From IMG/VR virus record IMGVR_UViG_3300037493_004552, positions 2,235 to 66,234 of that record: 64,000 nucleotides of DNA. One strand, 5' to 3'. Source of the stretch: a virus (lineage: Duplodnaviria; Caudoviricetes). A model generated the notes under the pieces. The model was not told the DNA's origin and ran no database searches. It worked only from the letters and a program-made list of their open reading frames with translations. Of the stretch, positions 5,144-63,628 are shown in pieces (position 1 is the first letter of the stretch; every line of letters starts with the position of its first letter). The position numbers were made by a program, and so were the translations under genes.

Positions 5144-5152
5144 TACAATCAC

Positions 5153-13022: not shown

Positions 13023-13055
13023 AGCGACAAGTATTAAAAAATAAAGGTCATTAAT

Positions 13056-13083
13056 AGTATAGTGATTTTAATAAGATATACAA
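13056..13083 (-). promoter_or_regulatory. promoter TTGTAT-N16-TATACT
   Basis: Upstream of ATG 13022. Confidence 0.5.
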
Positions 13084-16000: not shown

Positions 16001-16224
16001 TGTTGTATTGTTCCATTCATAACAGATAGATCATTAGTTGGACTAATAGTAATACTATGTGAGTCAAGACTTAGATCTTCACCTATCATACATTCAAGAA
16101 CTTCTTGTGTTGTTTGATTTATTGTAGAATACTCTCGACAAGTTCCATTATAATATGGAACAGCTCAAGCTTCAGGCTTACATGCTACGAGTTCATCTAT
16201 GGTTGGTGTTACGGCTGTGATCAT
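13084..16224 (-). CDS. long Cys-rich tail fibre/spike protein (1046 aa), possible C1q/BclA-like C-terminal domain
   Basis: ORF-track fragments join in one frame; NEHTL repeats; TITIVKTGYYHISLQG. Confidence 0.7.
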
Positions 16225-16246
16225 ATGAAATATATTTCAAAATAAA

Positions 16247-16693
16247 TTACGGACAGATACATCATTGTGTTGCAGTATTCCAAGCTATTTGTGAATTTGC
16301 CATCGCTGTCATCTTAGCAAGGTAAGCTAAGTAAGTTGGCTCGGTAGAGTCGGCGACGACTTCTCCGAATGCTTGGATCGCTACCCTTCAGGCATTGCAA
16401 TATAATACTATGTAATCTCATTCTGACATTCTTATTCCCTCATACTTATGAACCGACTCTCCTGGGAGATAGGCTGGGAAGTAAGCGAGACAATTCTTTT
16501 GGTCTGGTGTCTCTCAATTTTTTATGATATGTATTTTATATTTTACTCAAGCATATGTATCTCATTGATCTTGCTTTACCAAATTTGTTACGGTGATCGC
16601 AGAGATTACCCATTCTTTGTTAGCAGGTACTGTCCCCGCTGTGTAGGGTTGACTATCTGCAGGTGGAGTATATTGGAAAAGAATTTGGTTCAT
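16247..16693 (-). CDS. putative virion protein (148 aa)
   Basis: Open frame in the recoded table within the tail cluster. Confidence 0.6.
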
Positions 16694-17844
16694 TAATGTT
16701 TATGGTTGGAATAAAACATTACTCAAAAAGATATTCATGGTCAAGCATATGATACCTCAGAATTGGATTGTCCAACTCATACTGGTTGTAAATCATATAC
16801 AGAACATCTAAATGATACGGTTGGTGTAACTCAATCTGTTCATCTTGAGTCTATCTTACATCCTAAAGCAATATATGTATCAGCATCTAACCATACTAAT
16901 GAATGTCCATTTAATGTGACAGTCATAGATTTTAAACCATCAGCTCATGCATTAGATTGATATGGTGCATTAGCATATGATCATGCAAATGTTTCTTCTG
17001 CTCAATATTTTGCATCAATTAATATTTTAGGATTGGTAGCTTTTGGTACACAAACAAATAATCTTATTCTTGATACTCAATTATTTATAACTGCTTCACC
17101 CTTCATTCGTATTTCATACATACCAGATTTTTCAATACGAATCATTCCATCATATGTATTAGTTCAGTTCATTCATGGGGATCATTGAAACACATCCATA
17201 CTAGGGGTAAATGTAAGATTTATTCCTCCTCGTGCTGCTGAGTTAGTAAACAAAAATGATTGATACATATTTGTAACTAAAGATGGTTGTAGATCATTTG
17301 ATGCATAACGTACCGCTCGAAGACCTTGATCACCACCATTACAATCTCGATAGGTATTTCAATTAGCATCTCATTTAAGAAATGCTCAGTTACAAGTAGG
17401 TGTACTTGGAACGATTACGACTCCTGTTGGAGGAGCGATAGCAATTTGAACTTGTTGGTTTCACATAGATCAAATTATATTAACATTAACAACTCGTCCA
17501 TTAACTGTACTACCAACTATTTTTGCTCAAAGATATCATGGGGTATCAGTAGAACTTACTCAAACTTTTTCATCAGTATCATTAATTACTAATGGTACTG
17601 CTTCGAGACAATGAGATGCATTAACTCTTAATACATATCATGCTGGTATTGTATCGATCGTGGTATTGAAAAAATCTACAACACATTGTTTAGTTAATTG
17701 TTGTGGTATATGTAAGAGACACTCTTCAATAAGATCACATGGATTAACATATGAATGTAGTCCGTCACAATCTACTTGGATTATTGAACCACAAGCCATA
17801 GCAGATGGATCAATATAATATATTCCGTAAAAAATTTCTGGCAT
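16693..17844 (-). CDS. Cys-rich tail protein with a C1q/BclA-like C-terminal domain (383 aa)
   Basis: IRIEKSGMYEIW motif; Cys-rich N-terminus. Confidence 0.6.
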
Positions 17845-17952
17845 ATCTAAATATTGAAACGGCTAAAAGATGAACCTTCAATTTGTTGTGGAGGTAATGG
17901 ATATCTTATTGGTGTGGGTGTTGATGCTTCAGTAGTAGGATCTACTACAGAC

Positions 17953-18504
17953 TTAACCTGACTGACTACTGTCCTTCTGGTCATTGGTTGGGATACTGGA
18001 GCTTTCTGAGCTTGGAGATTGGATATCATCGCTGCTCTCTTCTTTGCGCATCATGAACACATTTTCAATTTGTTTACCTAGTAAAATATCTTGGAGACAA
18101 CGACCACATAATTGTGGCTCTATGCCTAGAAACATTGATAATACTTGAATCATTTGTAGGTATGCTCTTTGTTGTACATCTTCTCGACAGATAGCTGTCA
18201 TAGCGTGTGCACATTCAGTTGCGAACATATAAGATGCTACCGCGTGTTTGAACGTACATCGTAAGTTTTTGTCAGACGATTCAAATGTTTCCAATAGATT
18301 TTCCATAACCATTCTACGCATAGTTATTGACTGCGATAGAATACTTTGTTGGTCCATAATTTTTTGTTGTAATTCCTTGGTTGGTTCTAGATCATAGTCA
18401 CTCATAAATTCATTTATAAGTTCTTGACAATGGGAAGAGATAGCGATTTGGTTCGCTATCAATTCCACTGCGTCAAGTACTCGTAATCTAGAAGTTTGTT
18501 GCAT
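17953..18504 (-). CDS. hypothetical protein (183 aa) with Cys/His motifs
   Basis: Intact ORF; CTFKH...CGRC. Confidence 0.7.
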   Translation of the reverse strand: MQQTSRLRVLDAVELIANQIAISSHCQELINEFMSDYDLEPTKELQQKIMDQQSILSQSITMRRMVMENLLETFESSDKNLRCTFKHAVASYMFATECAHAMTAICREDVQQRAYLQMIQVLSMFLGIEPQLCGRCLQDILLGKQIENVFMMRKEESSDDIQSPSSESSSIPTNDQKDSSQSG

Positions 18505-18507
18505 ATT

Positions 18508-20955
18508 TTATAGGGAATAATTATAAACTCTTTCATAAGGTTGGATATCTTTTACGGCATATGATGGTGTTCATTGCTGTCGGTCATGACTATATTTTTT
18601 ATATCTTGTATATACAATTCTATCGGTTCTTTCACCAGGATAGAATCTCAACCAGCGTGCTGTATCTATACTAGGATTTGGTTGTACAGACATTCAATCA
18701 GCTGGTATTAAACATTGATAATAGAAACCATTTCATCAATAACTTTCATCTCGTTGTACCATATCACCTATTATATATGTTCAAAGATCTAACCATTGTT
18801 TATGTATAAATTCATATGGACTGAATGTAATATCACTTCCTTTCATTCTTACATTAGTTGTGAAGAATCCTATTCATATAAACACATTTCATTCTGGTAT
18901 AGATATATTACCAATACCATGTAAACTACTATCCCATCGACATTCACCACTTCGTTGTTCTTCACCTCGAGATCAAGCGATTTGTCGGAAGGTATTTACT
19001 CAACCGAATACTACTTGAGATTTTGTTTCTACTCCTGGAATTCAAGCAAATGATTTTATAAGATTGAAATTACAATAACATTGTCTTTCAGAAGGACAGA
19101 GAGCAAGACAATTCCAATTACAATCTTTTATAGTAAGATGTGTTTGGGCTTCATTTACTTTATCTCAATATTCTACTGGAATAGGATATGATTGATTTAA
19201 TATATTTATAAAATAGAATTCATTTGGTGGTTCTGGACATGGATCTTCATATACAGTATTATATGGACATGGTACAAATGGTAAAGTAATATCATATCTT
19301 TCTAGCCATACACTACTTGAAGCATCTATAACATTTAATATTCTAACTCTTTTATCAACTCTTTCTATTATTCACGTACCTGGACAAAACATGCCTTGGA
19401 TACGTTTGAGTTCAGATCAGATACCATCAATCATTTGTGTATCATGTATCCATACATTATTTCTTCTTCCAATAACAAATATGTTACATCGTGGTTGGAA
19501 AGCATCTAGGGTATCTTCAGAATAATCTATAATGATAGTTCAAAAAGATATATCTATAAATCTATTTTGATACATTTCTCTTTCTGCTTGGTCGCCTACT
19601 TCAAGTAAATATGTAGTAGCGGTTCCAGTTGTTCCTGGATATAATCTATTACAAGCAAATTTATATGTTTGATTTTTAATAGTAGAACTAGTTCTGAATA
19701 TTCTCGCTGCACGAGCTACATCTATTTTGATATCAATTATAGATGAAGTACCACTCATAACTTGTGGACTTATAAATGCATCTTGTGGCGTGATAGGTCA
19801 TAACCATTCAAGATCTCATGTAATTATCAATTCAGTAATTGGTATTAAACCAAGCATTTGAATTGATCAAGTTAATTGTGTTCATTTAAAGAAATGTATT
19901 CTTGCATTATCTACAGTAAGATCTTCGGTATAATGTCATGGATATACATGAACTACTTCATCTGTTGCAATAACTGATGCTGCCGCTCATATAGTAAGAA
20001 ATGGACGTTCTAATCTACCAACCATACCAGTTGCGTCATCTCCATTCTTCATAACAAATGCTACTTTTTCTACAACTATAGGACATGGACAAAGTGAATC
20101 ACTTGCTATACAAGAAAGATCAACTGATGTTCAACAAATAGTTAATGTATATTTTGTAATTCCTGCTTCTGTTTGCTCACATACGAATGTCATATCAGGT
20201 ACAAGATCAACATTTATTTGACTGTTTAATGCATCTCGTGATGCGACAAGACAATCATTGAAATTTATTTTTGCAACATTAGTATGTACTAATATATTAT
20301 CTTGATAGATACTTAATGCGGATCCTTCTCATCCTCAACATGGACATAGCTGTTGAGCGATAATATTTATTTGACTTTGCAATCCAGAGATTAATGGTGT
20401 CATACATTCTATAATTTGATCACAACATACATCTAATGGATTAGCTCGATAAGCGGTATTAGTTATACTGTTCCATGTTAATACCTGTGAATTAGTTCCA
20501 CCTGTTGGAAGCCCTATTTGTAAAGTATTTATTCAAACAATAAACCTTAATCCATCTAATCATTGTACAAAAATTTGTTCTCAATTAGTAATGAAATCCG
20601 TATGGATACCATCGTTAAATGCAAACGTGAAAAAATTTGCCAAACATGTTAGGTCAATGGTAGTATTTCATATCGTAAATATTCCTGTTTGACAATTAAT
20701 TGATGCTGTAAATAAACTTATAATATAATCAGCATCAATACTAATAGAACATCTTTGTGTATCTACAATTAACCCAGTATTAAATCATATAATATTAAGT
20801 AATGCTTCGCAATCAATACATGATAATACATCATCACAAGTGATACCGTCTGGGATCTGTTGTAATATCCAATGACAACCATCATATACTATCATAGTAT
20901 TTGCCTCTAATTGTTGAGGACAAGTTGATATTAAGTCTTCTAAATTTGTTCGCAT
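18508..20955 (-). CDS. tailspike with a beta-helix/pectate-lyase-like region and a C-terminal carbohydrate-binding-like motif (815 aa)
   Basis: FVMKNGDDATG...PFLTIGAA...VHVYPGHYTE; W...YIIGDMVQW...YYQC; shared N-terminal family motif. Confidence 0.7.
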
Positions 20956-20994
20956 ATATAAAATATTTATTTATATAAAATTATATCTACATAC

Positions 20995-21022
20995 AGTGTA
21001 TTGTTTTGTGGGAGAAAATCAA
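20995..21022 (-). promoter_or_regulatory. promoter TTGATT-N16-TACACT
   Basis: Upstream of ATG 20955. Confidence 0.45.
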
Positions 21023-21598
21023 CTAATTTGCATAATTATCCCATTGTATTCAAAGAGAATATGTTGTCATATAAGATTTGATTGGGGCTTTATATATCTC
21101 CCAATCCGTAGGGACGTCGGGCCCTATCGAATTAAGATGGTCATAAACTTTTTTTATTGCATCTCATCTCAAGATATAACACTCTGTTCACCATGGACCA
21201 ACATCTTTACACCATCAATAGATTCATTCTATTGGTTCCATAATCATAGTGGGACGGAAGAACCACGAGATTCTGAGCATGTCCCAGTCCTCAGGAGCTT
21301 CTAATATAAAATGATTAAAGTTTTGTTTGAAATAATTACAACAAAGAAGATCATCTTCCATCACGGTTATCTCATCATAACCTTTATCTATAGCATCTTT
21401 TAAGATTGCTATGTGTGATAGATTACATCAGACATTATGTGGATAACATCATTCACGAATAGGTTTATCATATGTGTTTCAATCAATTCAAAAAAAGATC
21501 TCGACGTCGTCCCGTCAGATCCTTTTCATTTCATTAAGAAAATGATAAAGTCTAATTTTACCTTTATCATTATCCATAGTTATTACATATCTATGCAT
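21023..21598 (-). CDS. glycosyltransferase family 25-like protein
   Basis: YVITM...R...IDG...GCNLSHIAILKDA...VMEDD...PEDWDML. Confidence 0.8.
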
Positions 21599-22056
21599 TA
21601 TTTATATCAGTATTTTCTGAATGCTGTATTAACATCAGCGAGAAGTTTTTGTTCTCGAACTAACTTTGTCTTGTTCCATCTAGCAGAGTTTGTTACCATA
21701 CATGAAACAATTGTCTTCCCAGTACATTCTGTGTGGCAGCTCTCTCATTTCACTCCAATGAGACCACACATTCAAGCCACATATTGTACATAAGCGTAAT
21801 CTCATTTCCAAGTAGGTTGTCAGTTTTTATTCAAGAATACTCGATCAATAGCTTTACCTGATTCATGTTTAGATGTGCCTGGTTTAGCTACTGGTCATTT
21901 TCATTTGAGTTGTGAATACAACCGTGCTTGTCTTGGTTTTGATCTATATGTTTCAAATGGCACTAGACCAGGATATTTTCTATTAACAATAGCTTTAAGA
22001 ACTTTAGCTTTTGTTTTGCATTCTCAATATAATTTATCTAGACTATTTTCTATCAT
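21598..22056 (-). CDS. endolysin, peptidase M15 family
   Basis: ETYRS...RQ..LY...VAKPGTSKHESGKAID...ESCH; adjacent to holin-like genes. Confidence 0.85.
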
Positions 22057-22234
22057 TTTGTTCTAAAAGATCTAAAATATTTTCTCTTACTCTATTACTA
22101 CATGTTTCAATCTCTGGACATCTAGCACAAACAGCCATCATTTCATTTGCATATTTGATAATGGTGCCAGTTTGTTTGTTAGATAGATTACCATCTGTCT
22201 GTTCAATGTAGTTATTACATTCAATAGTTTTCAT
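22043..22234 (-). CDS. hypothetical protein (63 aa)
   Basis: ORF within the lysis cluster; CxxCxxxxxC. Confidence 0.5.
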   Translation of the reverse strand: MKTIECNNYIEQTDGNLSNKQTGTIIKYANEMMAVCARCPEIETCSNRVRENILDLLEQNDRK

Positions 22235-22261
22235 CTACACTATTGTAATAAGTAAAATAAA

Positions 22262-22501
22262 TTATTCTTGAATATTAGATACAGATAATGTATCAGTACA
22301 ATAGAGTTTTACTGTGTGTGATAAGTTTGTTAGTATCGTAACGATAATAGGTACGAACAACACATATTCAGCAGGGATATTAGCGTTAGATATAATAACG
22401 ATAACACCTACGATAACAGAATACAACGCACCTCGTGCTAATGATTTCGCTTTCTTGATAAGTTCGACTTTACTAATACTGAATTTTTTTGATCCTTCCA
22501 T
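22262..22501 (-). CDS. putative holin (2 TM)
   Basis: Two hydrophobic helices, next to the endolysin. Confidence 0.65.
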   Translation of the reverse strand: MEGSKKFSISKVELIKKAKSLARGALYSVIVGVIVIISNANIPAEYVLFVPIIVTILTNLSHTVKLYCTDTLSVSNIQE

Positions 22502-22525
22502 GGGAATAAATAAGAGGTTAAAAAA

Positions 22526-22804
22526 TTATTTAATAACTAGATTAACTACAGCTCATAACACAGCAATAAGAATAATACCGACGAATCATTTGACCACCCG
22601 CTCAACTCGTTTGCTAGCGAATTTTTTTTCGAGGCGGTCAATCTTACCGTTCATAACATCGGCGAATTGCATAAGCGCATTACTGATTTTTTCGTGTGAA
22701 GAATTGTTTTCTTTAATAAAATCTTTAATGCTATCTTTTATCTCACGGATATCTTGCATAGTTTGTTTATTCTGTGTTTCTAAAACTGCGAGTCTTTCTT
22801 CCAT
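22526..22804 (-). CDS. coiled-coil plus C-terminal TM protein (XhlA/holin-associated type)
   Basis: MEERLAVLE...KWVEWVVKGFVGIILIAVLGAVVNLVIK. Confidence 0.65.
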
Positions 22805-22812
22805 TTATTTTA

Positions 22813-23004
22813 CTAAGATAATAAATGAGTTACTTGTTGTACCAAAATAGTATAAGTAGCATCAGTGAATTGAGCATAATATTCGATAACTTTAGCTTTA
22901 GCTTCATCTTCTGATGTTGCTTGTACTGGTCGAATGTATTCAATTGGTTCATACATTTCCGTACCAATTACTTTAATTACTTGAACTTGGATTAGATAAT
23001 TCAT
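22813..23004 (-). CDS. hypothetical protein (63 aa)
   Basis: Intact ORF with CCC-ATG start. Confidence 0.6.
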   Translation of the reverse strand: MNYLIQVQVIKVIGTEMYEPIEYIRPVQATSEDEAKAKVIEYYAQFTDATYTILVQQVTHLLS

Positions 23005-23007
23005 GGG

Positions 23008-24906
23008 TTATGATATATATAAATAAAAAGATTGTATTACTCATAATGGTTCAACATTCCAAACAGATGGTGTTAAAAATTCTATTTGTAATTCATCTCA
23101 AGCATTTACTGCTAGATTGATATTATAAAGATCAATTCTTGAACCATCAGTAAATCATATTGAGCTTAATGAATAACCTGTAGTTGCAATAACTTCTGTT
23201 CCTTGCGTGAAGTTTCTAACTTTTATAGTTATAGTGTTATCAGATATTCCTCGTTGTGTAACTACTTTTGACATTATTTGTAATGATTTAACATGTCCTG
23301 TAATAGGTGTGTGTGATCTCATTGCAGGTGAATTATAGAATAATGTTTTAGCTGCTACACCAGGCGTTGTAGAGAATAAATATGTTTCATGCTGAGCAGG
23401 ATTATATAATGGCGCAAAATATGTTAGCGTTGCTCAACCTCAACCACCACCAGAATGTGAAATTATATCTTGATAGATACAAGATAGATCTATCATTGTA
23501 CCGAAAAGATTTAAAGTATAAATAGAATCTCCTGTCTCAGGATCTACTGTACAATTAAATTCAAATTCTGAATATTTATTAACTATTGAATCATAAATAC
23601 ATGTCATATCAATAGTAGCTACTCGCTCTGATTCATCTCAAAGATATAATGTATATATAGGATGACCCATCTCATCAACTGTACATTCAAATGAACCTTC
23701 TATTCTATGAAGAATTGAATCATATATACAAGATAAATCAATTTGACTATCTGCTCATGTTTCTAATGAGAATATTGGTTTACCTGACTCATCAGTAGAA
23801 CAATAGAATGACATTCCATTTGTAATAGTATTATAAATACAAGAAAGGTCTATGGTTTCTCCTCATATATAAAGTAAGTATTGTGGAATTTGTGATTCAG
23901 GCAATACACATTCAAAACTTACATTAAGATATGTTAGGACACTACCATAGATACAAGTCATATCTACATCTGTTCCTCATACATGAAGTATTAAAGCATT
24001 TCATGCTTCAACACATTCGAATTGTACATCAAGGTTATCAATAATACTTGTGAAAATACAAGATAGATCTACTTCTGTATCACAAATTTGTAATGTATAT
24101 ATATATCCTACTTCAGCAGGACTACATTGAAAGCTTACGGTAGGAGCGAACATTACATCTATAAAATTATTATGCGAATCTCGTGATGCTGATAAACATG
24201 TTCCAAAATTTATGGCTGTAACATTACTACGGACTAATGATCCTCCACTATAAATAGCGAGTGATGATCATTCACCTCCTCATGTACATGGACAAAGTTG
24301 TCATGCTATAATATTAATTTGGTTTTGTAATATATCAATATATGGTTGTACACATTTGATAACTTGATCACAACAAATATCTAATGGATTTGCCCGATAT
24401 GCTGTATTAGTTGTGCTATTCCAAGTAAGTACTTGAGAGTTAGTACCTCATGTGGGTAATCCAACTTGTAATAAATTAGGTCATACTTTAAATCTTAATC
24501 AATCTAATCCTTGAACAAAAATAAGATCTCAATTATTTACAGCATAATTATTTGTGCCATCCATAAATGTGATATGGAACATATCTGCTATACAACTAAT
24601 ATTATGTGTAGTTGTTCAAATAACTAATTCTCATGAAGTACAATCAAATGTAGATATAACACTATTATTTATAAAAATTCCATCTACTTCAATAGTACAT
24701 GCTCTTGCGTTAACAATAAATCCACTAGTGAAATGTAAAATATCTAGTAGTACTTCACAGTCTATACATGACAACATATCTTCACATGTAATACCATCGG
24801 GAATTTGTTGAAGTATCCAATGACATCAATCGAATACGATAATTGAATTAGGTTCTAATTGATTGGGACAATTATCGATTAGATCTATTAAAGATACATA
24901 AGGCAT
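23008..24906 (-). CDS. Cys-rich tail fibre with (I/V)D(L/M)(S/T)CIY repeats (632 aa)
   Basis: N-terminal ~250 aa paralogous to 18508-20955; internal repeats. Confidence 0.7.
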
Positions 24907-24934
24907 TTTTTTTAAAGTAAGATATAAAAATTAA

Positions 24935-25516
24935 TTATTGTATATGAACGGTATACATTTGTATTACATCTTCAGGATTCACAGACCAAGCAGGAGTTTT
25001 CAATCTTATAGAGATTTGGTCACCTGCATTTACTTGTAAATTTATCGGATACATATCTAATCTTGATGTACTGATTAATGCTAAAGAATTTAATCAATAT
25101 GTAGTAGTACCTGTATAATTAGTTCATTGTGTATAATTATGTACTATAATAGTTATATTTTCTGATGTAGCGAATATTCCTGCTACTGAAGACATAACAG
25201 TAAGTGATGTTATATATCCTGTTATAGGCGATATTGTTCTTCTAGATGGTCTATCATTAGAAATAGTTAATGGCACTAATGATGATACTGGAGCAAACAC
25301 ATATGTTGAATTATCAGCAGGAGAAAATAATGGTGCAAAAAATGTTAGATCTGCTCATTGTCCTGTTCAACCACCTCCTGGGGGAGGTCGAGAAGTTATA
25401 CAACTACCTCACAAAAAACAAAAACTTGTCCCTGTTATTACACCAGATTCGAGTCCAGCATAAACTATACTTAATGTTGTGATAGCTCATAGAATATAAA
25501 CTAATAATTTTTTCAT
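24935..25516 (-). CDS. signal-peptide protein paralogous to the tail-fibre tip domain (193 aa)
   Basis: MKKLLVYILGAITTLSIVYA; CFLGGSCITSWP; C-terminus aligns by eye with the C-terminus of 23008-24906. Confidence 0.7.
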
Positions 25517-25539
25517 GTAGATAATATTAAATTATAAAA

Positions 25540-27360
25540 CTAAGGTAGTGTAAATACTGTTGATGTTACTCGATTACCACCAGTATAAAATTGTGCTACT
25601 ACTGATGATCCAGAATAAGCCATTCTAAATGGAGCAAATCAACCTGTAAGATTAAATGAAGTATCTGATTGTATTGATCATGAAACATCTAGTGAATATT
25701 GTGGATGTATTTTTAATATACCTACTTTACCAACATTAGTAACAGTCATTGCATTACCTGACATATTAGTATTATTCCCTCATATTCCAATTTCAAAAAT
25801 ACTATCAGATAATCATATATTAAACACTCAAAGGGATGTAGAATATTCTCATCTAGCAGTTGTTCAAAATCAAAATGTAGTAGAATTAGATCAAATAGAA
25901 TAACATTGTGCTCATGCTGAAAATGAACCATCTCATATAGCATGTGCGCCATATCATATAGCTACTGATGATGATCAAGTAGCGGTATTCCAATTTCATA
26001 TAGCAACTGATTCATATGCATTAGCAGTATTATAACTACCTATAACCGTAGATCATGTTGTTGCAGTATTTGCATATCCAACTGAAAAAGTATTATATTC
26101 TGGAGTGGTTACTATTATATTTTTTGATACTGCTCATTGTATAGGAATATATCAACTCAATACTCCTCCTGTTATATATCACAATGGATTAGATGTATAG
26201 TAATTTCAACTATACATATTAAAATATGTTCCGCTATTAGCAACCAAAAGATATGGATCTAATGCTAATCATGTTAAGTATCATTGCGATGCATGATTAC
26301 CTCGTCCATATGCTGTATTCCAGTTACCTGTCATAGATATATTAACTCGATTACCTGAATTATTTAAGAAATAATTTCGATTACCTGAATTAGAATTTAT
26401 TGTTCACATAGCTATTGGATCTGATTCAGGATCATCTACATTCTTGATCTTGTCCCAATCAGCTGATGTGGTTACTCAAGCAACATATTTATTACCTACC
26501 ATCATATCTCCGATATTGTAATATATACTACCACCTGTTCATGCAGCAGAGATTAAATAAAAATCTCATGTACTCATTCAAGTAGGATAAGTTCCACCAG
26601 CCATTGACCATATTCCTTTATATGACATATCTGATAGGAATACTGCTAATAGATTATCTACTTGTCCAGTAGTATAATAACTTCCTGAATGATTATAAAA
26701 ATATAATGCATTTCCTGATTGATTAATTACTCGATTATATGTAGTATTTCGATTACCTGTTTGTGACAATAATACATACGAAGATAATACTGCACCAGTT
26801 ATATATCATTTAGGATTATTATTATAATAAGTACCAGAATTTGTATTGAAATATACTCAACTATTAGCTGTAAATATTGGATCTAATTCTGTAAATCCTG
26901 TAAGGTATCAACTTAATGCACCTCATGTTATATAACCTAATGGATTATTAGTATAATATGTTCATGAATTAGCATTAAAGTATATTCATGAATTAGCAAT
27001 AAAATAATTTCATGAGTTTGTATTAAAATATGTACCACTATTTGCATTGAAATATATTCATGAATTTGCAAGAAAATAATTTCATGAATTAGTATTAAAA
27101 TATATTCATGAGTTTGTATTAAAATATGTTCATGAATTTGCAATAGTTAAATATCATGAAGTAATTAACCCACTAATACTTTTCGCAAAATCTGCTGCAC
27201 TTATTTTATTTTGTGCAGTAGAATCTTGAACCATCACATAATGTGATGATGGTATGATATTTGTTATAGTTGGAAGTCCTAATATATTAGGAGCAATGAT
27301 AGCATATGTTGTTCAAAGAACAGCAGCTACTCATAAAACTCGTGACAATAATTTTTTCAT
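25540..27360 (-). CDS. signal-peptide, Ser/Thr-Gly-rich repeat protein (606 aa)
   Basis: MKKLLSWVLGVAAVLGTTYA; NSGxYFxx octapeptide repeats. Confidence 0.7.
26950..27145 (-). repeat. 24-bp coding tandem repeat (NSG[T/I/N]YF[N/L/I][T/A], about 8 copies)
   Basis: Directly visible; one copy has AGT GGT where the others have TCA TGA. Confidence 0.85.
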
Positions 27361-27385
27361 AATTACTTAGAATTAAAGTATAAAA

Positions 27386-56167: not shown

Positions 56168-56602
56168 ATGTGAATCTTCACCTGACAAATCAATGTTAAT
56201 GAGGCGTTGTCCTACATTAATACAGAGTTCTTATCTAAGATCAAAGAGGGCATGGTCATCACCAAGGACTACGCCCTAGACCTGGGAGCGAGATACTCAC
56301 AGTATGCTATAACAATAGATGTAGTCATGGCAATAGTACGATGAACTCTTTTTCTTACAGCACTTTTGCTATTGAAGAAAATGTTTAGACGATGCAAGCA
56401 TATCAATTCAAAAGCAGATTATGAAAACGAATGAGTTGCATATGTTATGTTCGTAGTTCAATTCGTTGCTATGATTTGATTCTTTGTATGAGCCATTACT
56501 AATGTAATGGATCTAGTCAAACGAAAGTTCGTACCTGAAGTTCAGATGTACCAAGTAATCATGGACATCAAGAATGGTAACACAACTAGCAATGATAGAT
56601 AA
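56168..56602 (+). CDS. membrane protein (2 TM, 144 aa)
   Basis: CCCC-ATG start; two hydrophobic helices. Confidence 0.65.
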
Positions 56603-57179
56603 TCTATCTCTCATCAAACCACTACTCAAGTGGGACGGGCCCGAGCAGTTCTACTTCATACAGATCATCGTACGCAAGAAAGATATAGCTGGTATGCAAA
56701 GTAACAACAGGGTTATCAAAGATTACTATGTATACTCAGAAGAATACTTAGACAAAGTATATCCAGAGATACAGAAACTATGTAAGCTCTTTGATGCACG
56801 TGCATACATCAGACTATCAAGACGCGACGCGGCTGAGATAGCTAAGGATCTTATTGTTCTGGTAGGCGAAGCCTTCAGGAACAACAGCTTCCAGCATCTA
56901 CGCAAGATCTATTCAACTGCAGTTGGACAGAACCTTGGGTTAGATAAGCTATGGATCATTGACCTGGACTGAACAGACACATCGTCGGCAGCTAGGATCA
57001 CTGAAGCAATCAATGTCTTACAACCGACAGGCATAACCAATAAAGTTGTGACTACTATACCAACTAAGAATGGTATACATCTAATCACAACTCCGTTTGA
57101 TTTGATGAGGTTCCAAGACAATGGCTTCCATAAAATAGATGTACACAAAAACAATCCAACACTTTTATATTGTATGTAA
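56592..57179 (+). CDS. stand-alone protein with AEP-like motifs (195 aa)
   Basis: RKKD, ARAYI, WIIDLD, PTKNGIHLIT, HKNNPTLLY. Confidence 0.6.
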
Positions 57180-58267: not shown

Positions 58268-58801
58268 ATGGAAACAAATCTAATGAAAGTCTCTATTGCA
58301 AAACTCTGAACTTCAATACAAGAAGTTGAGATAGCAGTATGAGCGACAGCAATGGACGCTCTAAGAAAAGCAGGATTCAATCTTGATTGAATAGTTTCAA
58401 TTAAAAGAAACTGAACAGTCATCGCTCTTGATGCAGCTTTAACAGCAGAAGATGTCTTGCTTGTATCAATAACTAAGGTGAAAGGTTGACTCGATGAGCC
58501 AACTGCAACCGAAACTCCAGTCAATGTATTGAAGTTATCTTTCCACATCGTGAAAGAAAATCAACCAGAAGTTAATGGACAAGTAGCATTCACAGACGAC
58601 ATGTCTACGTTCGACATCATCAAACAAGTCATGAATTCTAAAGGAGTTTCATTAAACGACTTCAAAGAAATCAAAGATGCAGAAGGTAACGCAGTTACAT
58701 TCTCAGACAAACTTGTTGACGGTGGTTCATACAAAATCGTTATCTCTGATACTCCAGCAGGATCAGAAGACGAAGACGATTATGAAGAAGACGATTCTTA
58801 A
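58268..58801 (+). CDS. ubiquitin-like precursor: 74-aa beta-grasp ending KVKGG, linker, second beta-grasp-like domain, acidic tail
   Basis: MKVSIAKLG..QEVEI..GATAMDALRKAG...IKRNG...DVLLV..KVKGG (ThiS/Ub pattern). Confidence 0.8.
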
Positions 58802-58864
58802 TAAGCTTTTCTCTAGGTTTTACTTCCCCGAAAATCTAGCGTGTGGTTGTACATGCAACTCGAT

Positions 58865-58897
58865 AACCCTGGTACGATAAGCCAGGGGTTTTCTTTT
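58865..58897 (+). terminator. hairpin terminator/attenuator between the Ubl and E2 genes
   Basis: AACCCTGG...CCAGGGGTT followed by a T-rich run. Confidence 0.6.
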
Positions 58898-58916
58898 ACT
58901 TTAATTTTAATAGTAG

Positions 58917-60419
58917 ATGTTCATACATGAAGACTTCAAAGAAGATCTCAAAACATTAAGGGCTGACTTACAAACTAAGTTCGCTTTCCCAGCGGACGGA
59001 GTCGACAGTCTACCTAATGAGAAGATCATCGAAAAACTTAGAGAGATATTCTCAGGTGAACGTAACCTACATAATCACAGGTTAGTCTCTGATACCTGAC
59101 AAGATTATTATATTAATTTAATTCTAGATAATGTTGTATCAATAGATGATTCATTCATTCGACTAAAGGATTGACTGTTCAGACGAACTGGTCTAACGGA
59201 TTTAATTAATACAATAGAACAGGAATCAACTGAAGCTGAACTCTTCAAACCTAATAAGGTATGCCGCGTTTGTTCATCAGACAAACTCAGAACATTAAGT
59301 CTCACAACAATGAGAGATTATATCTGAAGGCATTACAAAGTAATTACCTATCATAAAGACGAGCTCCCTGAGTGAGTATTAGATAGTATGATTCATATCT
59401 ATACATCCAGACAACGCAGACTTGTATACGTACAAGATGCATACGAAAACTGGTATTCAATACCACAATGTACATTAGTTCCTACATCAATCAAAGACCT
59501 TGTCGCTCATGAAAGAAAGATCATGCTAGAGAAAATCATTTATGATTTACAAGACAATGCTAAATTCAAACTCGAAGAGTTGTCTAATGAATACTCTGAG
59601 AAACTCAGAGAGTTTATGGAGGCAAGCAAAAAGCTTGAACAGAATATGACATCAGACTACACACAAGAAGCGGAACGCATCTTGGAGATCCAACTCAATG
59701 TTAAATCTATTCTTGAAAAGAATGAACAGATAACTGATGTTAAATATATTATGGGTAAAGAACTCATAATCGAAACTGTTCCTCTATTCTGTGGTGATAC
59801 TAAGCTACCAATAGGTAGATATAGAATCACAATACCATTGAAGGAATGGAACCCTAAAGCAATTAATATGGATATAGGTAAAGATAATGGTTACCAACAT
59901 CCACATATACAATCCAACTGATCATGTTGTCTTGGTGAATACATATCACCTATGAGAACATCATTCAGCAAACAAGATTATATTACTCTTGCTGGATTCT
60001 TTATCGAGTTTCTCGAATCGTTAAACGAAAATAGTGTATATCAATCAATGGAGAACTGGCAACAAAATAATTACAAGAGATTCATTCCTTATCTTGATAA
60101 GCAACCTAAGGTAGCGAAGCAAGTTAATGGTGAAGCACCAAGCATCATCATCATAGATGATCCAGAAACCACATCTGAATCAGAACCTGAACCTGAATTA
60201 CGCGTATCATATAACTGACCATTGGATGAAGCAATTGCTGTTGCTAATGAAGAAACAGCATCATTACAATCTGCTCTTGCTCAAAAAGAATTGCAAGAAA
60301 GAATTGCACAAGCAGACTCAGATCGCATCGATAGAGAGCAAGACGAACAGATGCAAGCTGAAGAGCATCCAGAAAACGACGATGCTTATACTGAAGCAAA
60401 TACACCAGCAACATTTTAA
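58917..60419 (+). CDS. E2 (UBC-fold)-like conjugating protein with N-terminal domain, coiled coil and acidic tail (500 aa)
   Basis: IGRYRITI...YQHPHIQSNGSCCLGEY matches HPx(I/V)xxxGxxCL. Confidence 0.7.
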
Positions 60420-60434
60420 TTCTTTTATATACTC

Positions 60435-61430
60435 ATGGCTAGACCTAAATTAAAAGTTGCTGTACTTATCTCAGGATATGTAGCTCAACTTATTGACAGA
60501 CTCCACGAGGAGTATCCTAATACAGAGCGAAGCGGGATTGCTAGGATAGAGAAACGTGAAGGTCATTACTTAGTAACTGACATTCGTTTCCCTAATCAAT
60601 CAAACACCTGAGGGAACACCGAGATCAAGGACGGTTGATTAGAATCTTTGCTAGAAGATATCTTCACCAACAATCCTGAACAACTCCACGAACGAAAGGT
60701 TCGAGTTCACTCTCATCATTCAATGTGAGTCTTCCGATCAGGTACAGATGCTTCAGCAAAAGCATCATTCAATGATGGTAACATGGATTACCGATGGTCA
60801 ATTGTTACAGCTTACAAAGCTAACTCCATCACATATAAGTGTGCATTGAACGTATTCAAACCAGCCAATATAGAATTCGATGTACCAATCAAAGCAGAAG
60901 AATTCAATCTTGAAGAATACTTATCGCTTACTATGCCTGACTATCTCACATATAAAAAGGCATACGATAATCTCACCGCTCAGAAAGACGCGGCGATGGA
61001 AGAATATAATCAGCCTTATGTGCCAACAGAAGCTGATGTAATTACACTTATAAATATCTTCAACGTCGAAGACAACGAAGACAACCGCGCATCTTGTCTT
61101 GAGATTCTTGAAAAGAATTCCAAAGGACAAAAGAAAGCGTGAGCACATCGTATCATTGAGACATACAATGATGAATGTGAAGAATTATTAGACTTCTTTG
61201 GTTGAGATATATTCGCAGACAAACTCATAGAGTTGGCTGATTCAATAGAAGCTACTAGAATATATCCAGTATATAACCCACATCAAAAAACATCGTTTGG
61301 TACTGATGGTTATCCTGATCCATTGCCTGGACAAAGATGATTGTTCGATCCAGAACAATCTAAACCAGACAGACCAGGATCAAACTCAGCAATTTTAAAT
61401 CATTACTGATATCCCGATGACCGAGACTAA
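60435..61430 (+). CDS. JAB/MPN+ metallo-isopeptidase (331 aa)
   Basis: TEWSG glutamate; WVHSHHSMGVFWSGTD is an exact HxHx7Sx2D. Confidence 0.9.
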
Positions 61431-62076
61431 TAAGGAAAGATATCATAACCAGCTAGATATAATCAATCCGCTCTTCGAGCAGACTAAGGTCGTTGTGATA
61501 GGAGCGGGTTGAATTGGTTCCACTACTATCATGTGCCTAGCACAGATGTGAATCAAAGACATCACAGTAATAGACTTCGACACAGTCGAAGATCATAACC
61601 TCGCGTCTCAATTATATAAGGAGACTGATGTTAATAAAGTTAAAGTGCTTGCACTCCAAGAGAATGTATTAGCATTCACTGGGATAACTATTCAAACCAT
61701 CAGTTCAAAGTTCAGACCAGAGATGGTCAAAGACGCAGACATCGTTATCATTGGTGTAGACAACATGGCTACACGCAAGGAAGTGGTCGAGTCACTCACC
61801 ACTAAGACCAAGAGATTCATCGATGGTCGCATGCAATGAGAAGCATTCGAATTACATATGTTCATACCAGTATTCGAGACACCATTGTATATGAATACGC
61901 GGTACCCAGACAGCGAAGCTTCCCCAGAAACTTGCACCAACAAAGCCGTATCATATAATACATTTGCTATTGCTTCTGTCATATCTAGAGTCGTAGTCGG
62001 CATCATCAAAGATGATCCAGCTATCATGAAGAAGACAAACATTCAAGTTGATTTACATAACTTAATCATTTCATAA
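61417..62076 (+). CDS. E1-like ThiF/MoeB adenylyltransferase (219 aa)
   Basis: RYHNQ, IGAGGIGS, DFDTVEDHNLASQ, GVDN..TR, IDGRM, PETC. Confidence 0.92.
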
Positions 62077-62399
62077 TGCGAGTACTCAGAGACTGGGGTA
62101 ATTGATATGATGTCTATGTTCACATCAAACTATTCGATTCGCTTGATGATGCCATCAAAAAATGGAAGATAATGCTCAAGCGTGATCTCATTGCTATATT
62201 TTACAATGACGAGAATAGAAATACTGAACTCGGTATTGAAAATTTATTAAAAGAAATCACATTAGAACATGGTTGAAAACTAGTAGTAGAGGATTGTTAT
62301 TCCATCTACTATGATCCAGACAAAATGAATTATTCATATTACGATTACAATGATGACTATGAATCTCATATGGATATCCTTGATTTACCTATAACTTAA
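62076..62399 (+). CDS. hypothetical protein (107 aa), translationally coupled to E1
   Basis: TAATG overlap. Confidence 0.6.
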
Positions 62400-63289: not shown

Positions 63290-63628
63290 CCTACAGCAAT
63301 GTAGGAGATTATAGGAAAGTAGTTTTATTATTTAATTTATTATATTATGGATGATTCTAAAAGAGCATTAACATTTTGAGAAAAAGCAGTTTGATTAACT
63401 TTCAATCCTAGTGGAGATGCTGGAGTACAAAAAATTAAAGAATTGTATGCACAAATTATTGACCTTATGGATGAATTAAGAAACTCATCAGCCGCCGAAG
63501 CACACACAGAACATAAGAGACTTGCTAGTATAGCAATTACAGAAGCACAAACAGCTCAAATGTGGGCAGTAAAGGCTATCACTTGGAGAGATTAGTAACC
63601 ATTCTCCTACAGCAATGTAGGAGATTAT
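63290..63628 (+). repeat. 23-bp direct repeats CCTACAGCAATGTAGGAGATTAT at 63290 and 63606 flanking one gene
   Basis: Exact copies; each contains a CCTAC/GTAGG hairpin. Confidence 0.85.
63347..63595 (+). CDS. Acb2/Tad1-like anti-defence nucleotide-sponge protein (82 aa)
   Basis: FNPSG...IKELYAQIID...KRLASIAITEAQTAQMWAVKAITW helical hairpin. Confidence 0.7.

What the first reader, a model, noticed from the sequence alone, without database searches (positions are those of the whole stretch)
58268..62076. Phage-encoded complete ubiquitin-like conjugation cassette (Ubl - E2 - JAB - E1) hidden by codon reassignment
Seen: four consecutive co-oriented genes in the early region. They encode a beta-grasp protein with Gly-Gly at residues 73-74, a 500-aa protein with HPHIQSNGSCCLG, a JAB protease with an intact E...HxHx7Sx2D, and a ThiF/E1 with GAGGIG and a candidate catalytic Cys (PETC). 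Key motif residues in all four genes are TGA or CGA codons, so standard annotation shreds the cassette. Known: E1+E2+JAB+Ubl is the minimal activation/conjugation/deconjugation set of bacterial ubiquitin-like systems, including the Bil anti-phage system and the Cap2/Cap3 activities of CBASS. No thiamine/Moco, rhodanese or desulfurase genes are present here, which argues against a sulfur-carrier role. Inference: this virus of a CPR bacterium tags host or phage proteins with its own modifier during takeover, or counters host Ubl-based defence. The E2's extra N-terminal domain and coiled coil could select targets. Whether homologous cassettes are already described in other phages needs a search.
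Basis: partly seen in the sequence, partly recalled or inferred. Interest (0 to 1): 0.93.

Follow-up and report, generated by a model that had tools for sequence, protein, structure and literature searches.

The report
Phage-encoded ubiquitin-like tagging cassette
A complete 66-kb phage that reads TGA as glycine and CGA/CGG as tryptophan carries its own four-gene ubiquitin-style tagging kit (tag, carrier enzyme, trimming protease, activating enzyme), and related kits sit unrecognised in many other phages, including relatives of the gut crAss phages.

Summary
With TGA read as Gly (and CGA/CGG as Trp), 58268-62076 holds four co-oriented, tightly packed genes.

- **E1:** a 219-aa ThiF-family protein (Pfam 8.7e-28) with GAGGIG and a family-invariant Cys173 that aligns with ThiF Cys184.
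- **E2:** a 500-aa protein whose residues 248-392 fold as a UBC/E2 domain. AF2 pLDDT is 90.5, and top Foldseek and VIA matches are almost all eukaryotic E2s, best Z 9.3. It has a canonical-looking HPHIQSNGSCC motif.
- **JAB:** a 331-aa protein with a conserved JAMM motif. A profile of its standard-code relatives matches Rpn11-type deubiquitinases (2e-9).
- **Ubl:** a 177-aa pro-protein. A 62%-identical homologue folds as two beta-grasp domains like ISG15 or di-ubiquitin. KVKGG ends domain 1.

The cassette is not peculiar to this recoded phage. JAB+E1, usually with the E2 and a ~67-aa GG-ended Ubl, recurs in 22 IMG/VR contigs, mostly standard code. Distant versions sit in Flavobacterium phage FpV4 and crAss001. 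I found one relative in 185,579 cellular genomes.

It fails the defining architectures of Bil, Bub and CBASS Cap2/Cap3. Eight literature searches found no description. This scan has noted similar phage cassettes on other DNA before.

Most likely it is a thioester E1-E2 conjugation system with JAB processing. Its targets and role are unknown.

The parts
58268..58801 (+). Ubl pro-protein, 177 aa. The N-terminal ThiS/ubiquitin-like beta-grasp covers residues ~6-74 and ends in KVKGG (G73 58484-58486 GGT, G74 58487-58489 TGA). A variable acidic linker follows, then a second beta-grasp lacking a terminal GG (~residues 85-160), then an acidic tail.
   Evidence: Translation. 31 homologues of the same two-domain length were found, and K[IV]KGG is conserved mid-protein in the 29-row alignment of 28 of them with the window protein. 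AF2 of the 62%-identical homologue P0185 gave two beta-beta-alpha-beta-beta domains with a disordered GG linker, pLDDT 75.7. Foldseek top matches were ISG15, linear di-ubiquitin and polyubiquitin, E 7e-7, with 128 hits at E<=1e-3. Small standard-code phage Ubls align to domain 1 and end at the same KGG column.
58867..58887 (+). Terminator-like hairpin with a T-run between the Ubl gene and the E2 gene. It may attenuate transcription so that more tag than enzyme is made (inference).
   Evidence: Consensus scan: 7-bp stem with 5 GC pairs, tail GTTTTCTTTT. Six such sites were found in the region against 2.6 +/- 1.4 in shuffles. This is a pattern match only.
58917..60419 (+). E2-like protein, 500 aa. 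It has an N-terminal domain of unknown fold (~1-185), a long helical hairpin (~195-267), a UBC core (~248-392) and an acidic disordered tail (~420-500). The core carries H328-P-H330...G335(TGA)...C337-C338 at 59898-59930.
   Evidence: Translation. 152 homologues at E<=1e-3, with G300, H328, P329, H330 and C338 nearly invariant. AF2 of residues 185-430 gave pLDDT 90.5. Foldseek pdb top 50 were nearly all E2s, prob 0.9-0.99 but E only 5e-3 or weaker. VIA wide gave UBE2S Z 8.7, rmsd 3.8 A over 129 residues. pdb_via top 50 were all E2s, best Z 9.3. PADLOC CBASS 'E1-E2' models gave weak hits, 1.4e-4.
60435..61430 (+). JAB/JAMM metallopeptidase, 331 aa. The catalytic motif is E31 (60525-60527) and H92-x-H94-x7-S102-x2-D105 (60708-60749). 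Trp codons 32, 90 and 101 are CGA and Gly98 is TGA. There is a C-terminal extension of ~170 aa of unknown function.
   Evidence: Translations. In 20 homologues M97, F100, S102, T104 and D105 are invariant, and E31, H92, S93, H94 and H95 are at least 90% conserved. 16 standard-code relatives keep E, HSH, S and D invariant. Their profile hits the Caldiarchaeum Rpn11-like protein 6fjv at 2.1e-9, Rpn11/PSMD14 at ~1e-6 and CSN5 at ~4e-3. Five of 5 relatives tested hit Pfam Prok-JAB below the cut-off. The window protein itself has no Pfam or PDB sequence hit.
61417..62076 (+). Minimal single-domain E1 (ThiF family), 219 aa. GAGGIG lies at 61501-61518 (G32 = TGA). Conserved Cys173 is at 61933-61935 in PETC. 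Codon 162 is CGG (Trp). The gene overlaps the JAB gene by 14 nt.
   Evidence: Pfam ThiF 8.7e-28. The best solved-structure hit is E. coli ThiF at 1.9e-10, with C173 aligned to ThiF C184. PADLOC gave Cap2 E1-E2 at 2e-14 and BilD at only 3e-6 over the nucleotide-binding part. The Cys is invariant in 19 of 19 aligned family members. The whole-genome scan found it at 6.9e-26 with 3 TGA inside.

Best explanation
This is a phage-owned ubiquitin-like protein-conjugation module.

**Proposed path (steps 1-5 are inferred from the anatomy and from how the named families work).**
1. The JAB peptidase cuts the 177-aa pro-Ubl just after Gly74. This frees a 74-residue beta-grasp tag ending in Gly-Gly, plus a second beta-grasp/acidic fragment of unknown use.
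2. The minimal ThiF-type E1, presumably a homodimer, adenylates Gly74 and takes the tag as a thioester on Cys173.
3. The tag passes to Cys338 of the UBC-fold E2.
4. The E2 transfers it to lysines of target proteins without a separate E3. Its own N-terminal domain and helical hairpin probably choose the target.
5. The JAB can also remove the tag.

**Setting.** The genes sit in the early/replication arm of what looks like a virulent phage. The system therefore most likely acts inside the infected cell for the phage's benefit. The targets are unknown.
For: **Shown by computation: the genome.**
- Complete genome with direct terminal repeats, 66,234 bp.
- Phage markers are present.
- No integrase or resolvase was found.

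**The four parts.**
- E1 is a ThiF family member with an invariant crossover-loop Cys.
- E2 core has a UBC fold at pLDDT 90.5. Two aligners both put E2 enzymes on top.
- Its HPH-x4-G-x2-C has the same His-to-Cys spacing of 10 as the HPN...C motif of classical E2s. The classical motif is recalled, not from a call.
- JAB has an intact and conserved JAMM motif, and its relatives match Rpn11-type enzymes.
- Ubl: a close homologue folds as tandem beta-grasps. The internal KGG aligns with the C-terminal KGG (+0-4 residues) of the ~67-aa Ubls of standard-code relatives.

**Linkage across phages.**
- Of the 22 IMG/VR loci found through the JAB, tblastn with the window E1 hits 18, next to the JAB in all but L004.
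- An E2-family HMM hits a large ORF in 14 of 22, directly upstream of the JAB except in L018-L021.
- Small GG-ended ORFs lie beside the cassette.

**Complex model.** In relative L005 the cognate JAB(1-175)+Ubl pair scores ipSAE 0.84 against a best control of 0.02. That mark was reached by 58 of 80 solved complexes and 2 of 110 mismatched pairs. Runs agree in at least 99% of contacts and partner pLDDT is at least 89. The Ubl tail 58-67 touches E27, H86, H88, S96 and D99. JAB-ubiquitin complexes are solved, so this pass may reflect likeness.

**No sulfur-pathway partners.** None was found in the whole genome.
Against: - No biochemical datum exists for any member.
- The window's own JAB, E2 and Ubl get no significant Pfam hit.
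- Foldseek E-values for the E2 are only 5e-3 or weaker, and Z 8.7-9.3 is just above the tool's stated grey zone of 7-8.
- The E2 family profile hits UbcH7 only at ~5e-3, among coiled-coil noise.
- The Ubl and JAB folds, and the complex, were judged on relatives and not on the window's own proteins. These were a 62%-identical homologue and standard-code phages that tblastn aligns to the window JAB at 27-39% identity.
- The Ubl N-domain and the E1 are closest to ThiS/ThiF, which are sulfur carriers.
- No target, E3 or regulator is evident.
Confidence: 0.75

Rival explanations
1. The same enzymology, but the role is defence against competing phages (superinfection exclusion). The resident phage would tag structural proteins of a rival, as the bacterial Bil system does.
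For: [quoted passage not shown] Phages often carry defence genes (general knowledge).
Against: No integrase or resolvase is present, so there is no sign of a lysogenic state in which a host would be protected. The cassette lies in the early/replication arm here, and beside primase, UDG and exonuclease in FpV4 and crAss001. The JAB family was found in 22 viral contigs but in only 1 of 185,579 cellular genomes by a pattern scan. That distribution is unlike a host defence island gene.
Confidence: 0.13
2. A sulfur-carrier (ThiS/MoaD-type) pathway. The E1 would adenylate the tag, which is then thiocarboxylated to deliver sulfur to a cofactor, tRNA or DNA modification. The JAB would only mature the carrier.
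For: The best solved relative of the E1 is E. coli ThiF (1.9e-10), with C173 aligned to ThiF C184. One relative's Ubl hits Pfam ThiS at 4.5e-4, below the cut-off. One source names a homologue 'sulfur carrier protein ThiS'. JAB+ThiS/MoaD+E1 sulfur operons are known (PMC1779556 Table 1 classes 4a-4e).
Against: A conserved UBC-fold protein with a nearly invariant Cys is linked to the cassette in at least 14 of 22 loci. A sulfur relay has no need of it. No rhodanese, Aminotran_5 desulfurase, ThiG or MoaE is found anywhere in the complete genome, while the control family ThiF was found. Host enzymes could still supply sulfur.
Confidence: 0.07
3. A virion-assembly aid like lambda tail proteins I and K (Ubl plus JAB), or a peptide-adenylating MccB/PaaA-type pathway. 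Neither would involve protein tagging.
For: Phage tail clusters with a Ubl and a JAB are known (PMC1779556). MccB and PaaA are among the E1's solved relatives, at 1.5e-8 and 1.9e-7.
Against: The cassette is far from the tail and portal genes (roughly 11.7-50.5 kb, minus strand) and on the other strand. It includes an E1 and an E2, which the lambda system lacks. The substrate is a folded tandem beta-grasp, not a short peptide.
Confidence: 0.03

Closest known systems
Bil (BilABCD, types I/II) bacterial anti-phage Ubl conjugation operons
   Same: It has the same four activities in the same gene order (Ubl, E2, JAB, E1), no E3, and an E2 proposed to pick targets itself (PMC11601596 Results).
   Different: [quoted passage not shown] Here the E1 is one 219-aa ThiF domain with its Cys in the crossover loop. 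PADLOC gave no BilA, BilB or BilC match, and BilD reached only 3e-6 over the nucleotide-binding part. Bil is host-encoded, whereas this cassette is virus-encoded.
Type I Bub (formerly 6E.1): BubAB Ubl-E2 fusion and BubCD JAB-E1 fusion
   Same: The JAB is immediately coupled to a minimal homodimer-type E1. They are fused in Bub and overlap by 14 nt here. The JAB catalytic residues have almost the same numbering (E28/H91/H93/D104 against E31/H92/H94/D105). The Ubl is made as a precursor that the JAB cuts after a Gly. Ubls with 1-3 beta-grasp domains occur.
   Different: Bub works through oxyesters: its E1 has no Cys and its E2 has an invariant Ser. Here both cysteines are conserved. The Ubl's C-terminal partner is a second beta-grasp, not the E2. 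No Pfam family at all was hit in the four neighbouring ORFs scanned, so none looked like the DUF6527/BubE protease. That family was not searched for by name.
Type II CBASS Cap2 (E2-E1 fusion) / Cap3 (JAB)
   Same: The best defence-library hits of both the E1 (2e-14) and the E2 core (1.4e-4) are CBASS 'E1-E2' models. A JAB partner is present.
   Different: The E2 and E1 are separate genes here. A dedicated Ubl exists, whereas in CBASS the CD-NTase tail is the activated substrate (as I recall it; the abstract start of PMC10449767 says that cGAS/CD-NTases undergo the conjugation). No CD-NTase was looked for beyond the four genes.
Eukaryote-like ubiquitin operon of Candidatus Caldiarchaeum subterraneum (Ub, E1, E2, RING E3, Rpn11 homologue)
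   Same: The JAB family profile's best solved match is the 'proteasome N11-like' protein 6fjv (2.1e-9). Linking that entry to Caldiarchaeum is my recollection. The E2 keeps a classical HPN-like motif and the full UBC fold with its C-terminal helices. The pro-Ubl needs C-terminal trimming.
   Different: No RING E3 was found. The E2 has a ~250-residue N-terminal extension. The system is viral. For the paper PMC5654768 I saw only the search listing and the start of the abstract.
Lambda/T1 tail assembly proteins I (Ubl) and K (JAB+NlpC)
   Same: It is a phage-encoded Ubl with a Gly end fused to a C-terminal domain, plus a JAB predicted to release it (PMC1779556).
   Different: The lambda system has no E1 or E2 and lies in the tail module. 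The cassette here lies in the early arm and has both enzymes.

Membership tests
ThiF/E1 superfamily (Pfam PF00899) | A Rossmann-type adenylation domain with GxGxxG that scores above the curated cut-off | tested here: met
   97.5 bits against a cut-off of 28.1. 85.9 bits in the six-frame genome scan. It aligns with E. coli ThiF over residues 22-178.
Thioester-forming E1 | A conserved catalytic Cys in or near the crossover loop | tested here: met
   C173 aligns with ThiF C184 and is invariant in 19 of 19 aligned phage family members. Catalysis itself cannot be tested with these tools.
UBC/E2 fold | An alpha/beta UBC core, with E2 enzymes as the top structural matches covering most of the domain | tested here: met
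   The AF2 model has pLDDT 90.5. VIA wide gave Z 8.7, rmsd 3.8 A, 129 of 151 residues of UBE2S. pdb_via top 50 were all E2s, best Z 9.3. Foldseek top 50 were nearly all E2s, but E was 5e-3 or weaker.
UBC/E2 fold | An HPN-type motif followed by the catalytic Cys | tested here: met
   HPHIQSNGSCC, with H328, P329, H330 and C338 nearly invariant in 113-138 family members. That the spacing equals the classical motif is recalled, not from a call.
Pfam UQ_con (PF00179) and Prok-E2 families | A sequence match to the curated models | tested here: not met
   The window protein has no Pfam hit to these families at E<=1. The PF00179 scan of the genome gave 0 matches. None of 113 family members hit any E2 family at E<=1e-3.
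JAB/JAMM (MPN+) metallopeptidases | E...HxHx7Sx2D, intact and conserved | tested here: met
   Window residues E31, H92, H94, S102 and D105. They are conserved in 20 close homologues and in 16 standard-code homologues.
JAB/JAMM (MPN+) metallopeptidases | A sequence or profile match to known members | tested here: inconclusive
   The window protein and its close-homologue profile find nothing in Pfam or PDB. The profile of 16 standard-code relatives finds Rpn11-type enzymes at 2.1e-9 to 1e-5. Five of 5 relatives tested hit Prok-JAB at 16.6-22.8 bits, under the 25-bit cut-off. The link to the window is through tblastn at 2e-15 to 1e-4 for the standard-code relatives.
Ubiquitin-like beta-grasp modifiers | A beta-grasp fold ending in a conserved Gly-Gly | tested here: met
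   The fold was tested on the 62%-identical homologue P0185, not on the window protein. GG is conserved in all 29 aligned rows, written GW, WG or WW where databases read TGA as Trp. It coincides with the C-terminus of single-domain relatives.
Bil (BilABCD) | An E1 with tandem inactive plus active adenylation domains and a separate Cys domain | tested here: not met
   The E1 is 219 aa with a single ThiF domain. The BilD model matched only its positions 210-317 of 453, at 3e-6.
Bil (BilABCD) | Matches to the BilA, BilB and BilC models of PADLOC | tested here: not met
   None of the three was listed at E<=1 for the Ubl, E2 or JAB.
Type I Bub | Ubl-E2 and JAB-E1 fusions, an E1 without Cys, and an E2 with catalytic Ser | tested here: not met
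   There are four separate genes. The E1 Cys and E2 Cys are conserved. The defining features come from PMC11601596.
Type II CBASS Cap2/Cap3 | An E2-E1 fusion protein acting on a CD-NTase | tested here: not met
   The E2 and E1 are separate genes with the JAB gene between them. Only weak or partial PADLOC hits were found. The presence of a CD-NTase elsewhere in the genome was not tested.
ThiS/MoaD sulfur-carrier pathways | Co-occurrence with sulfur-transfer or acceptor enzymes (rhodanese, desulfurase, ThiG, MoaE) | tested here: not met
   There were 0 matches for PF00581, PF00266, PF05690 and PF02391 in the complete genome. Host-encoded partners cannot be excluded.

The most novel reading that the evidence does not exclude
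Tailed phages, from viruses of code-25 bacteria to crAss-like gut phages, may own a virus-specific, thioester-based ubiquitination system with a near-classical E2 and an Rpn11-like protease. This system would be distinct from all described bacterial classes (Bil, Bub, CBASS). They would use it early in infection to tag host proteins, for example defence or replication factors, as eukaryotic viruses exploit ubiquitin. In this phage's clade the tag is made as an ISG15-like tandem precursor. Its released second beta-grasp could be a separate effector, or it could act in trans as the E2-recruiting ubiquitin-fold domain that the minimal E1 lacks.
Probability: 0.3. Interest if true: 0.88.

Novelty: new variant of a known kind. 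Interest (0 to 1): 0.72.

Why it matters
In the papers I read, bacterial ubiquitin-like conjugation is described as host machinery, mostly anti-phage. A conserved, virus-owned E1-E2-JAB-Ubl kit would turn that picture around. It would mean that phages also write protein tags in the infected cell.

The E2 keeps the classical His-Pro-x...Cys motif and the full UBC fold. The protease profile is closest to Rpn11-type enzymes. The family therefore also bears on where eukaryote-like ubiquitin enzymes came from.

Distant versions sit in cultured phages (FpV4, crAss001) that are annotated only as 'thiamine biosynthesis protein', 'metalloprotease domain' and 'hypothetical'. The idea can therefore be tested at the bench now. 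The tag ends in Lys-Gly-Gly, so standard di-Gly remnant proteomics should work.

The case also shows a database problem. Entries for this phage clade are mistranslated, with Trp written for Gly at TGA and Arg written for Trp at CGA.

Tried and rejected
**Window proteins against libraries.**
- Pfam, PHROGs and PADLOC on the window proteins named only the E1 clearly.
- Re-translating with CGA/CGG=Trp did not rescue a Pfam hit for the JAB or the E2.
- phmmer of the E2 and JAB against solved structures gave nothing, or noise at E 0.3-0.5.
- The close-homologue JAB profile A1 found only prefoldin at E 1.
- The E2 family profile A4 gave UbcH7 at ~5e-3 among keratin and ClpB coiled-coil noise.

**GenBank phages.**
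- tblastn of the window E2 found no match.
- tblastn of the L005 JAB found no match.
- The FpV4 and crAss001 versions were therefore reached only through the E1 and then by motif.
- Their 'E2-like' genes (FpV4 gp52, crAss001 gp78) rest on a weak motif resemblance.
- BFVD also lists proteins from other crAss-like phages (CrAss-like virus sp. ctDAq1 at E 5e-3, cr128_1 at E 0.22).
- The E2 HMM did not hit FpV4.

**Bacterial E2s.** Bil, Cap2 and Bub E2 structures did not appear in the listed top 50 of any fold search. This is not evidence against kinship.

**Cellular genomes.**
- The E2 alignment A4 was too diverse for the search for related loci.
- I used the JAB alignment A9 instead. It searched with a single 8-residue pattern, so '1 of 185,579 genomes' is a lower bound.

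**Code and literature.**
- No tRNA was found in the window or the genome, so the code cannot be tied to a phage tRNA.
- Eight paper searches found no description of a phage-encoded E1+E2+JAB+Ubl cassette.
- Targeted look-ups in both Bil preprints and in Iyer et al. 2006 found none either.
- One 2026 virome preprint mentions a phage UBA5-like family in passing.
- The library lacks most subscription papers, and supplements are closed. Table S1 of the Bub preprint (544 operons) and similar lists could name phage-borne operons that I could not see.

**Not attempted.**
- Host assignment beyond the genetic code.
- The fold of the E2 N-terminal domain and of the JAB C-terminal extension.
- Expression data (look-up of sequencing runs and read laying were unused).

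Full report
**What the DNA is.** The window is bases 2235-66234 of a single 66,234-bp virus record. The record has a 109-bp exact direct terminal repeat and is rated complete.

Reading TGA as a stop leaves 51 stop-to-stop frames of at least 100 codons. Reading it as sense gives 132, and a non-overlapping set of these covers 94% of the window.

Phage markers are present:
- a P22-like portal (Pfam 5e-8)
- a helicase (phrog_16, 1.6e-41)
- a primase-polymerase

No tRNA gene was found. No tyrosine or serine recombinase was found, so nothing suggests lysogeny.

**The genetic code.** TGA codons fall on positions that must be glycine:
- the GxGGxG loop and a second conserved Gly of the E1
- the second Gly of the Ubl's KVKGG
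- the Gly of the E2 motif
- the 'MG[VC]F' Gly of the JAB, which is nearly invariant in 16 standard-code relatives

Public database entries for this clade were evidently translated with TGA=Trp. Columns therefore mix G and W.

For CGA/CGG the best evidence is the JAB. Window codons 90 and 101 are CGA. They fall on columns that are Trp in 16 of 16 standard-code relatives ('W-x-HSH' and 'F-W-S-G-T-D'). E1 codon 162 (CGG) aligns with Trp of E. coli ThiF. In phage relatives that column is mostly Leu or Trp.

Shulgina and Eddy predicted exactly this pair of changes, UGA to Gly and CGA/CGG to Trp, for Absconditabacteria (PMC8629427, passages read). That prediction is the only basis for the host guess.

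**The four genes.** Under table 25 the region gives four co-oriented genes: Ubl 58268-58801, E2 58917-60419, JAB 60435-61430 and E1 61417-62076. JAB and E1 overlap by 14 nt, and the next ORF overlaps the E1 stop by 1 nt. A terminator-like hairpin at 58867-58887 follows the Ubl gene.

*E1.*
- Pfam ThiF scores 8.7e-28.
- The best solved relative is E. coli ThiF at 1.9e-10, with window C173 aligned to ThiF C184.
- This Cys is invariant in 19 of 19 aligned members of the phage family.
- The protein is a single 219-aa domain.

*E2.*
- No Pfam family matches it, nor any of 113 homologues.
- An exhaustive HMMER search found 152 homologues at E<=1e-3. G300, H328, P329, H330 and C338 are nearly invariant.
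- AlphaFold2 on residues 185-430 with 138 sequences gave pLDDT 90.5. The model is a long helical hairpin followed by an alpha/beta core.
- Foldseek against the PDB listed almost only E2 enzymes in its top 50. Probabilities were 0.9-0.99, but E-values were 5e-3 or weaker.
- The independent VIA search of 48,161 chains put E2 enzymes in nearly all of the first 31 places. UBE2S scored Z 8.7, rmsd 3.8 A, 129 residues.
- The second-look alignment gave 50 of 50 E2s, best Z 9.3.
- These Z values are only just above the tool's stated grey zone. The uniformity of the hits, the coverage of the whole E2 domain and the HPH-x4-G-x2-C motif make a UBC fold the clear reading.
- BFVD adds uncharacterised 370-590-aa proteins of uncultured phages, including crAss-like ones, and giant-virus E2s.

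*JAB.*
- The window protein has no Pfam or PDB sequence hit.
- Its E31...H92-x-H94-x7-S102-x2-D105 is a complete JAMM motif. It is conserved in 20 close homologues and in 16 standard-code relatives.
- The profile of those relatives matches an archaeal Rpn11-like protein (6fjv, 2.1e-9), Rpn11/PSMD14 (~1e-6) and CSN5 (~4e-3).
- Five of 5 relatives tested hit Pfam Prok-JAB just below the cut-off.

*Ubl.*
- 31 homologues share the two-domain length. In the 29-row alignment of 28 of them with the window protein, every row keeps K[IV]KGG in mid-protein. A variable acidic linker, a conserved second domain and an acidic or Cys-rich tail follow.
- It forms two beta-grasp domains joined by a disordered linker that holds the GG (pLDDT 75.7).
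- Its best structural matches are ISG15, linear di-ubiquitin and polyubiquitin (E 7e-7).
- The ~67-aa Ubls of standard-code relatives align with domain 1 and end at that same KGG, plus 0-4 residues.
- The internal GG is therefore the mature C-terminus, and the window protein is a precursor.

**The cassette recurs in phages.**
- A scan of IMG/VR with the JAB alignment returned 22 loci.
- tblastn with the window E1 hit 18 of the 22, next to the JAB in all but L004. Two of the other four loci are cut off just past the JAB match. The other two have an E1-sized ORF that tblastn missed.
- An E2-family HMM hit a large ORF in 14 of 22, directly upstream of the JAB except in L018-L021, where the E1 lies between them.
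- Only L001 and L002 are TGA-recoded. The rest give the same matches under table 11.
- One locus (L004) has a di-Ubl with two GG ends.

In GenBank phages the E1 finds 80 records, chiefly Flavobacterium psychrophilum phages and crAss-like Bacteroides phages.
- In FpV4, the four genes gp53-gp50 are annotated 'hypothetical' three times and then 'thiamine biosynthesis protein'. By my reading they encode three things plus a possible fourth:
  - gp53: a beta-grasp-like protein with an internal SGG and a long extension
  - gp52: a possible E2-like protein
  - gp51: a JAB with HSHNTMAVFFSGTD
  - gp50: the E1
- The FpV4 genes lie beside primase, UDG and an exonuclease.
- crAss001 gp79-gp76 repeat this layout.
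- These are distant versions. The E2 assignment there is weak.

A pattern scan of 185,579 cellular genomes found one relative of the JAB, on an archaeal MAG contig. It used a single 8-residue pattern, so this is a lower bound.

**Mechanism.** The parts fit a thioester cascade:
1. The JAB trims the precursor.
2. The E1 adenylates Gly74 and charges C173.
3. The tag moves to E2 C338.
4. The tag is transferred to a target lysine.
5. The JAB reverses the modification.

A complex model of the cognate JAB(1-175) and Ubl of relative L005 supports binding. The ipSAE is 0.84 against a best control of 0.02. That mark was reached by 58 of 80 solved complexes and 2 of 110 mismatched pairs. Runs agree in at least 99% of contacts and partner pLDDT is at least 89. 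The Ubl tail lies on the catalytic residues. Similar complexes are solved, so this shows likeness, not proof. It was also run on a relative.

A sulfur-carrier role is unlikely. A conserved Cys-bearing E2 is linked to the cassette, and the complete genome lacks rhodanese, desulfurase, ThiG and MoaE (with positive control). What is tagged, and to what end, is open.

**Comparison with known systems.**
- The gene order equals BilABCD. However, the Bil E1 architecture is not met, and PADLOC's Bil models do not match beyond a partial BilD hit.
- Type I Bub shares the JAB-E1 coupling, the JAB residue numbering and precursor cleavage. It uses oxyesters and fusions, so its defining features are not met.
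- CBASS Cap2 is an E2-E1 fusion, also not met.
- Iyer et al. 2006 list bacterial classes 6a-6e. For phages they list only the tail Ubl/JAB pair.
- The classical His of the E2 motif, which they say is lost in classes 6c and 6d, is kept here.

Eight literature searches and look-ups in the Bil and Bub preprints found no account of phage-encoded cassettes. The one exception is a passing remark on a phage UBA5-like family.

This scan has noted phage Ubl-E2-JAB-E1 cassettes on other DNA several times. Those notes are unchecked leads and did not enter the scores.

**Verdict.** I rate the cassette a new variant of a known kind: a virus-owned, thioester-type Ubl conjugation module that was unrecognised in the databases and papers I could search. 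In this clade the tag is made as a tandem beta-grasp precursor, and the genes are masked by a double codon reassignment. Confidence in the conjugation mechanism is 0.75. The biological role is undetermined.

Noticed in passing
window 1-64000 (genome G000:C1:1-66234): The genome is complete with a 109-bp direct terminal repeat. It uses TGA=Gly and CGA/CGG=Trp yet carries no tRNA gene, so it must rely wholly on host tRNAs for the reassigned codons.
   Followed up: partly
database proteins P0008-P0027 and P0179-P0208: Public protein entries for this phage clade are translated with TGA=Trp and CGA=Arg. They therefore show W where Gly belongs (for example KGW for KGG) and R where Trp belongs (for example FRSGTD for FWSGTD). 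Profiles built from them are degraded.
   Followed up: partly
L004:4200-4613: A standard-code phage relative encodes a 137-aa tandem Ubl in which both repeats end in VKGG (GG at 67 and 135). This is a polyubiquitin-like precursor placed directly before its E2 gene.
   Followed up: no
L023 (FpV4 gp50-gp53) and L025 (crAss001 gp76-gp79): Cultured phages carry a distant version of the cassette beside primase, UDG and exonuclease genes. The annotations read only 'thiamine biosynthesis protein', 'metalloprotease domain containing protein' and 'hypothetical protein'. The crAss001 E1 has an extra ~165-residue N-terminal region.
   Followed up: partly
L024 (contig of an archaeal MAG, 5001-5411): This is the only relative of the phage JAB family found in 185,579 cellular genomes. 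It lies on a 28-kb contig of a Natrialbaceae MAG and may be a binned virus. Its neighbours were not examined.
   Followed up: no
window 63347-63595 (+): An 82-aa protein just downstream of the cassette matches phrog_717 (7e-11, unknown function). Another first-reader note calls it a possible nucleotide sponge. This was not tested here.
   Followed up: no
window 56574-57179 (+): A 201-aa protein upstream of the cassette matches phrog_14949 at 5.8e-36 (unknown function). It is a well-conserved phage protein of the same early arm.
   Followed up: no
window 11679-27366 (-): A run of large paralogous fibre-like proteins has similar Cys-containing N-termini and repeated 'NEHTL'-type units. None matched PHROGs at 1e-5.
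   Followed up: no
window 62076-62399 (+): A 107-aa ORF starts on the last base of the E1 stop codon (ATGA-type overlap), so it may be translationally coupled to the cassette. It has only a weak hit to phrog_33520 (9e-4). I did not check whether a counterpart follows the E1 in relatives.
   Followed up: no
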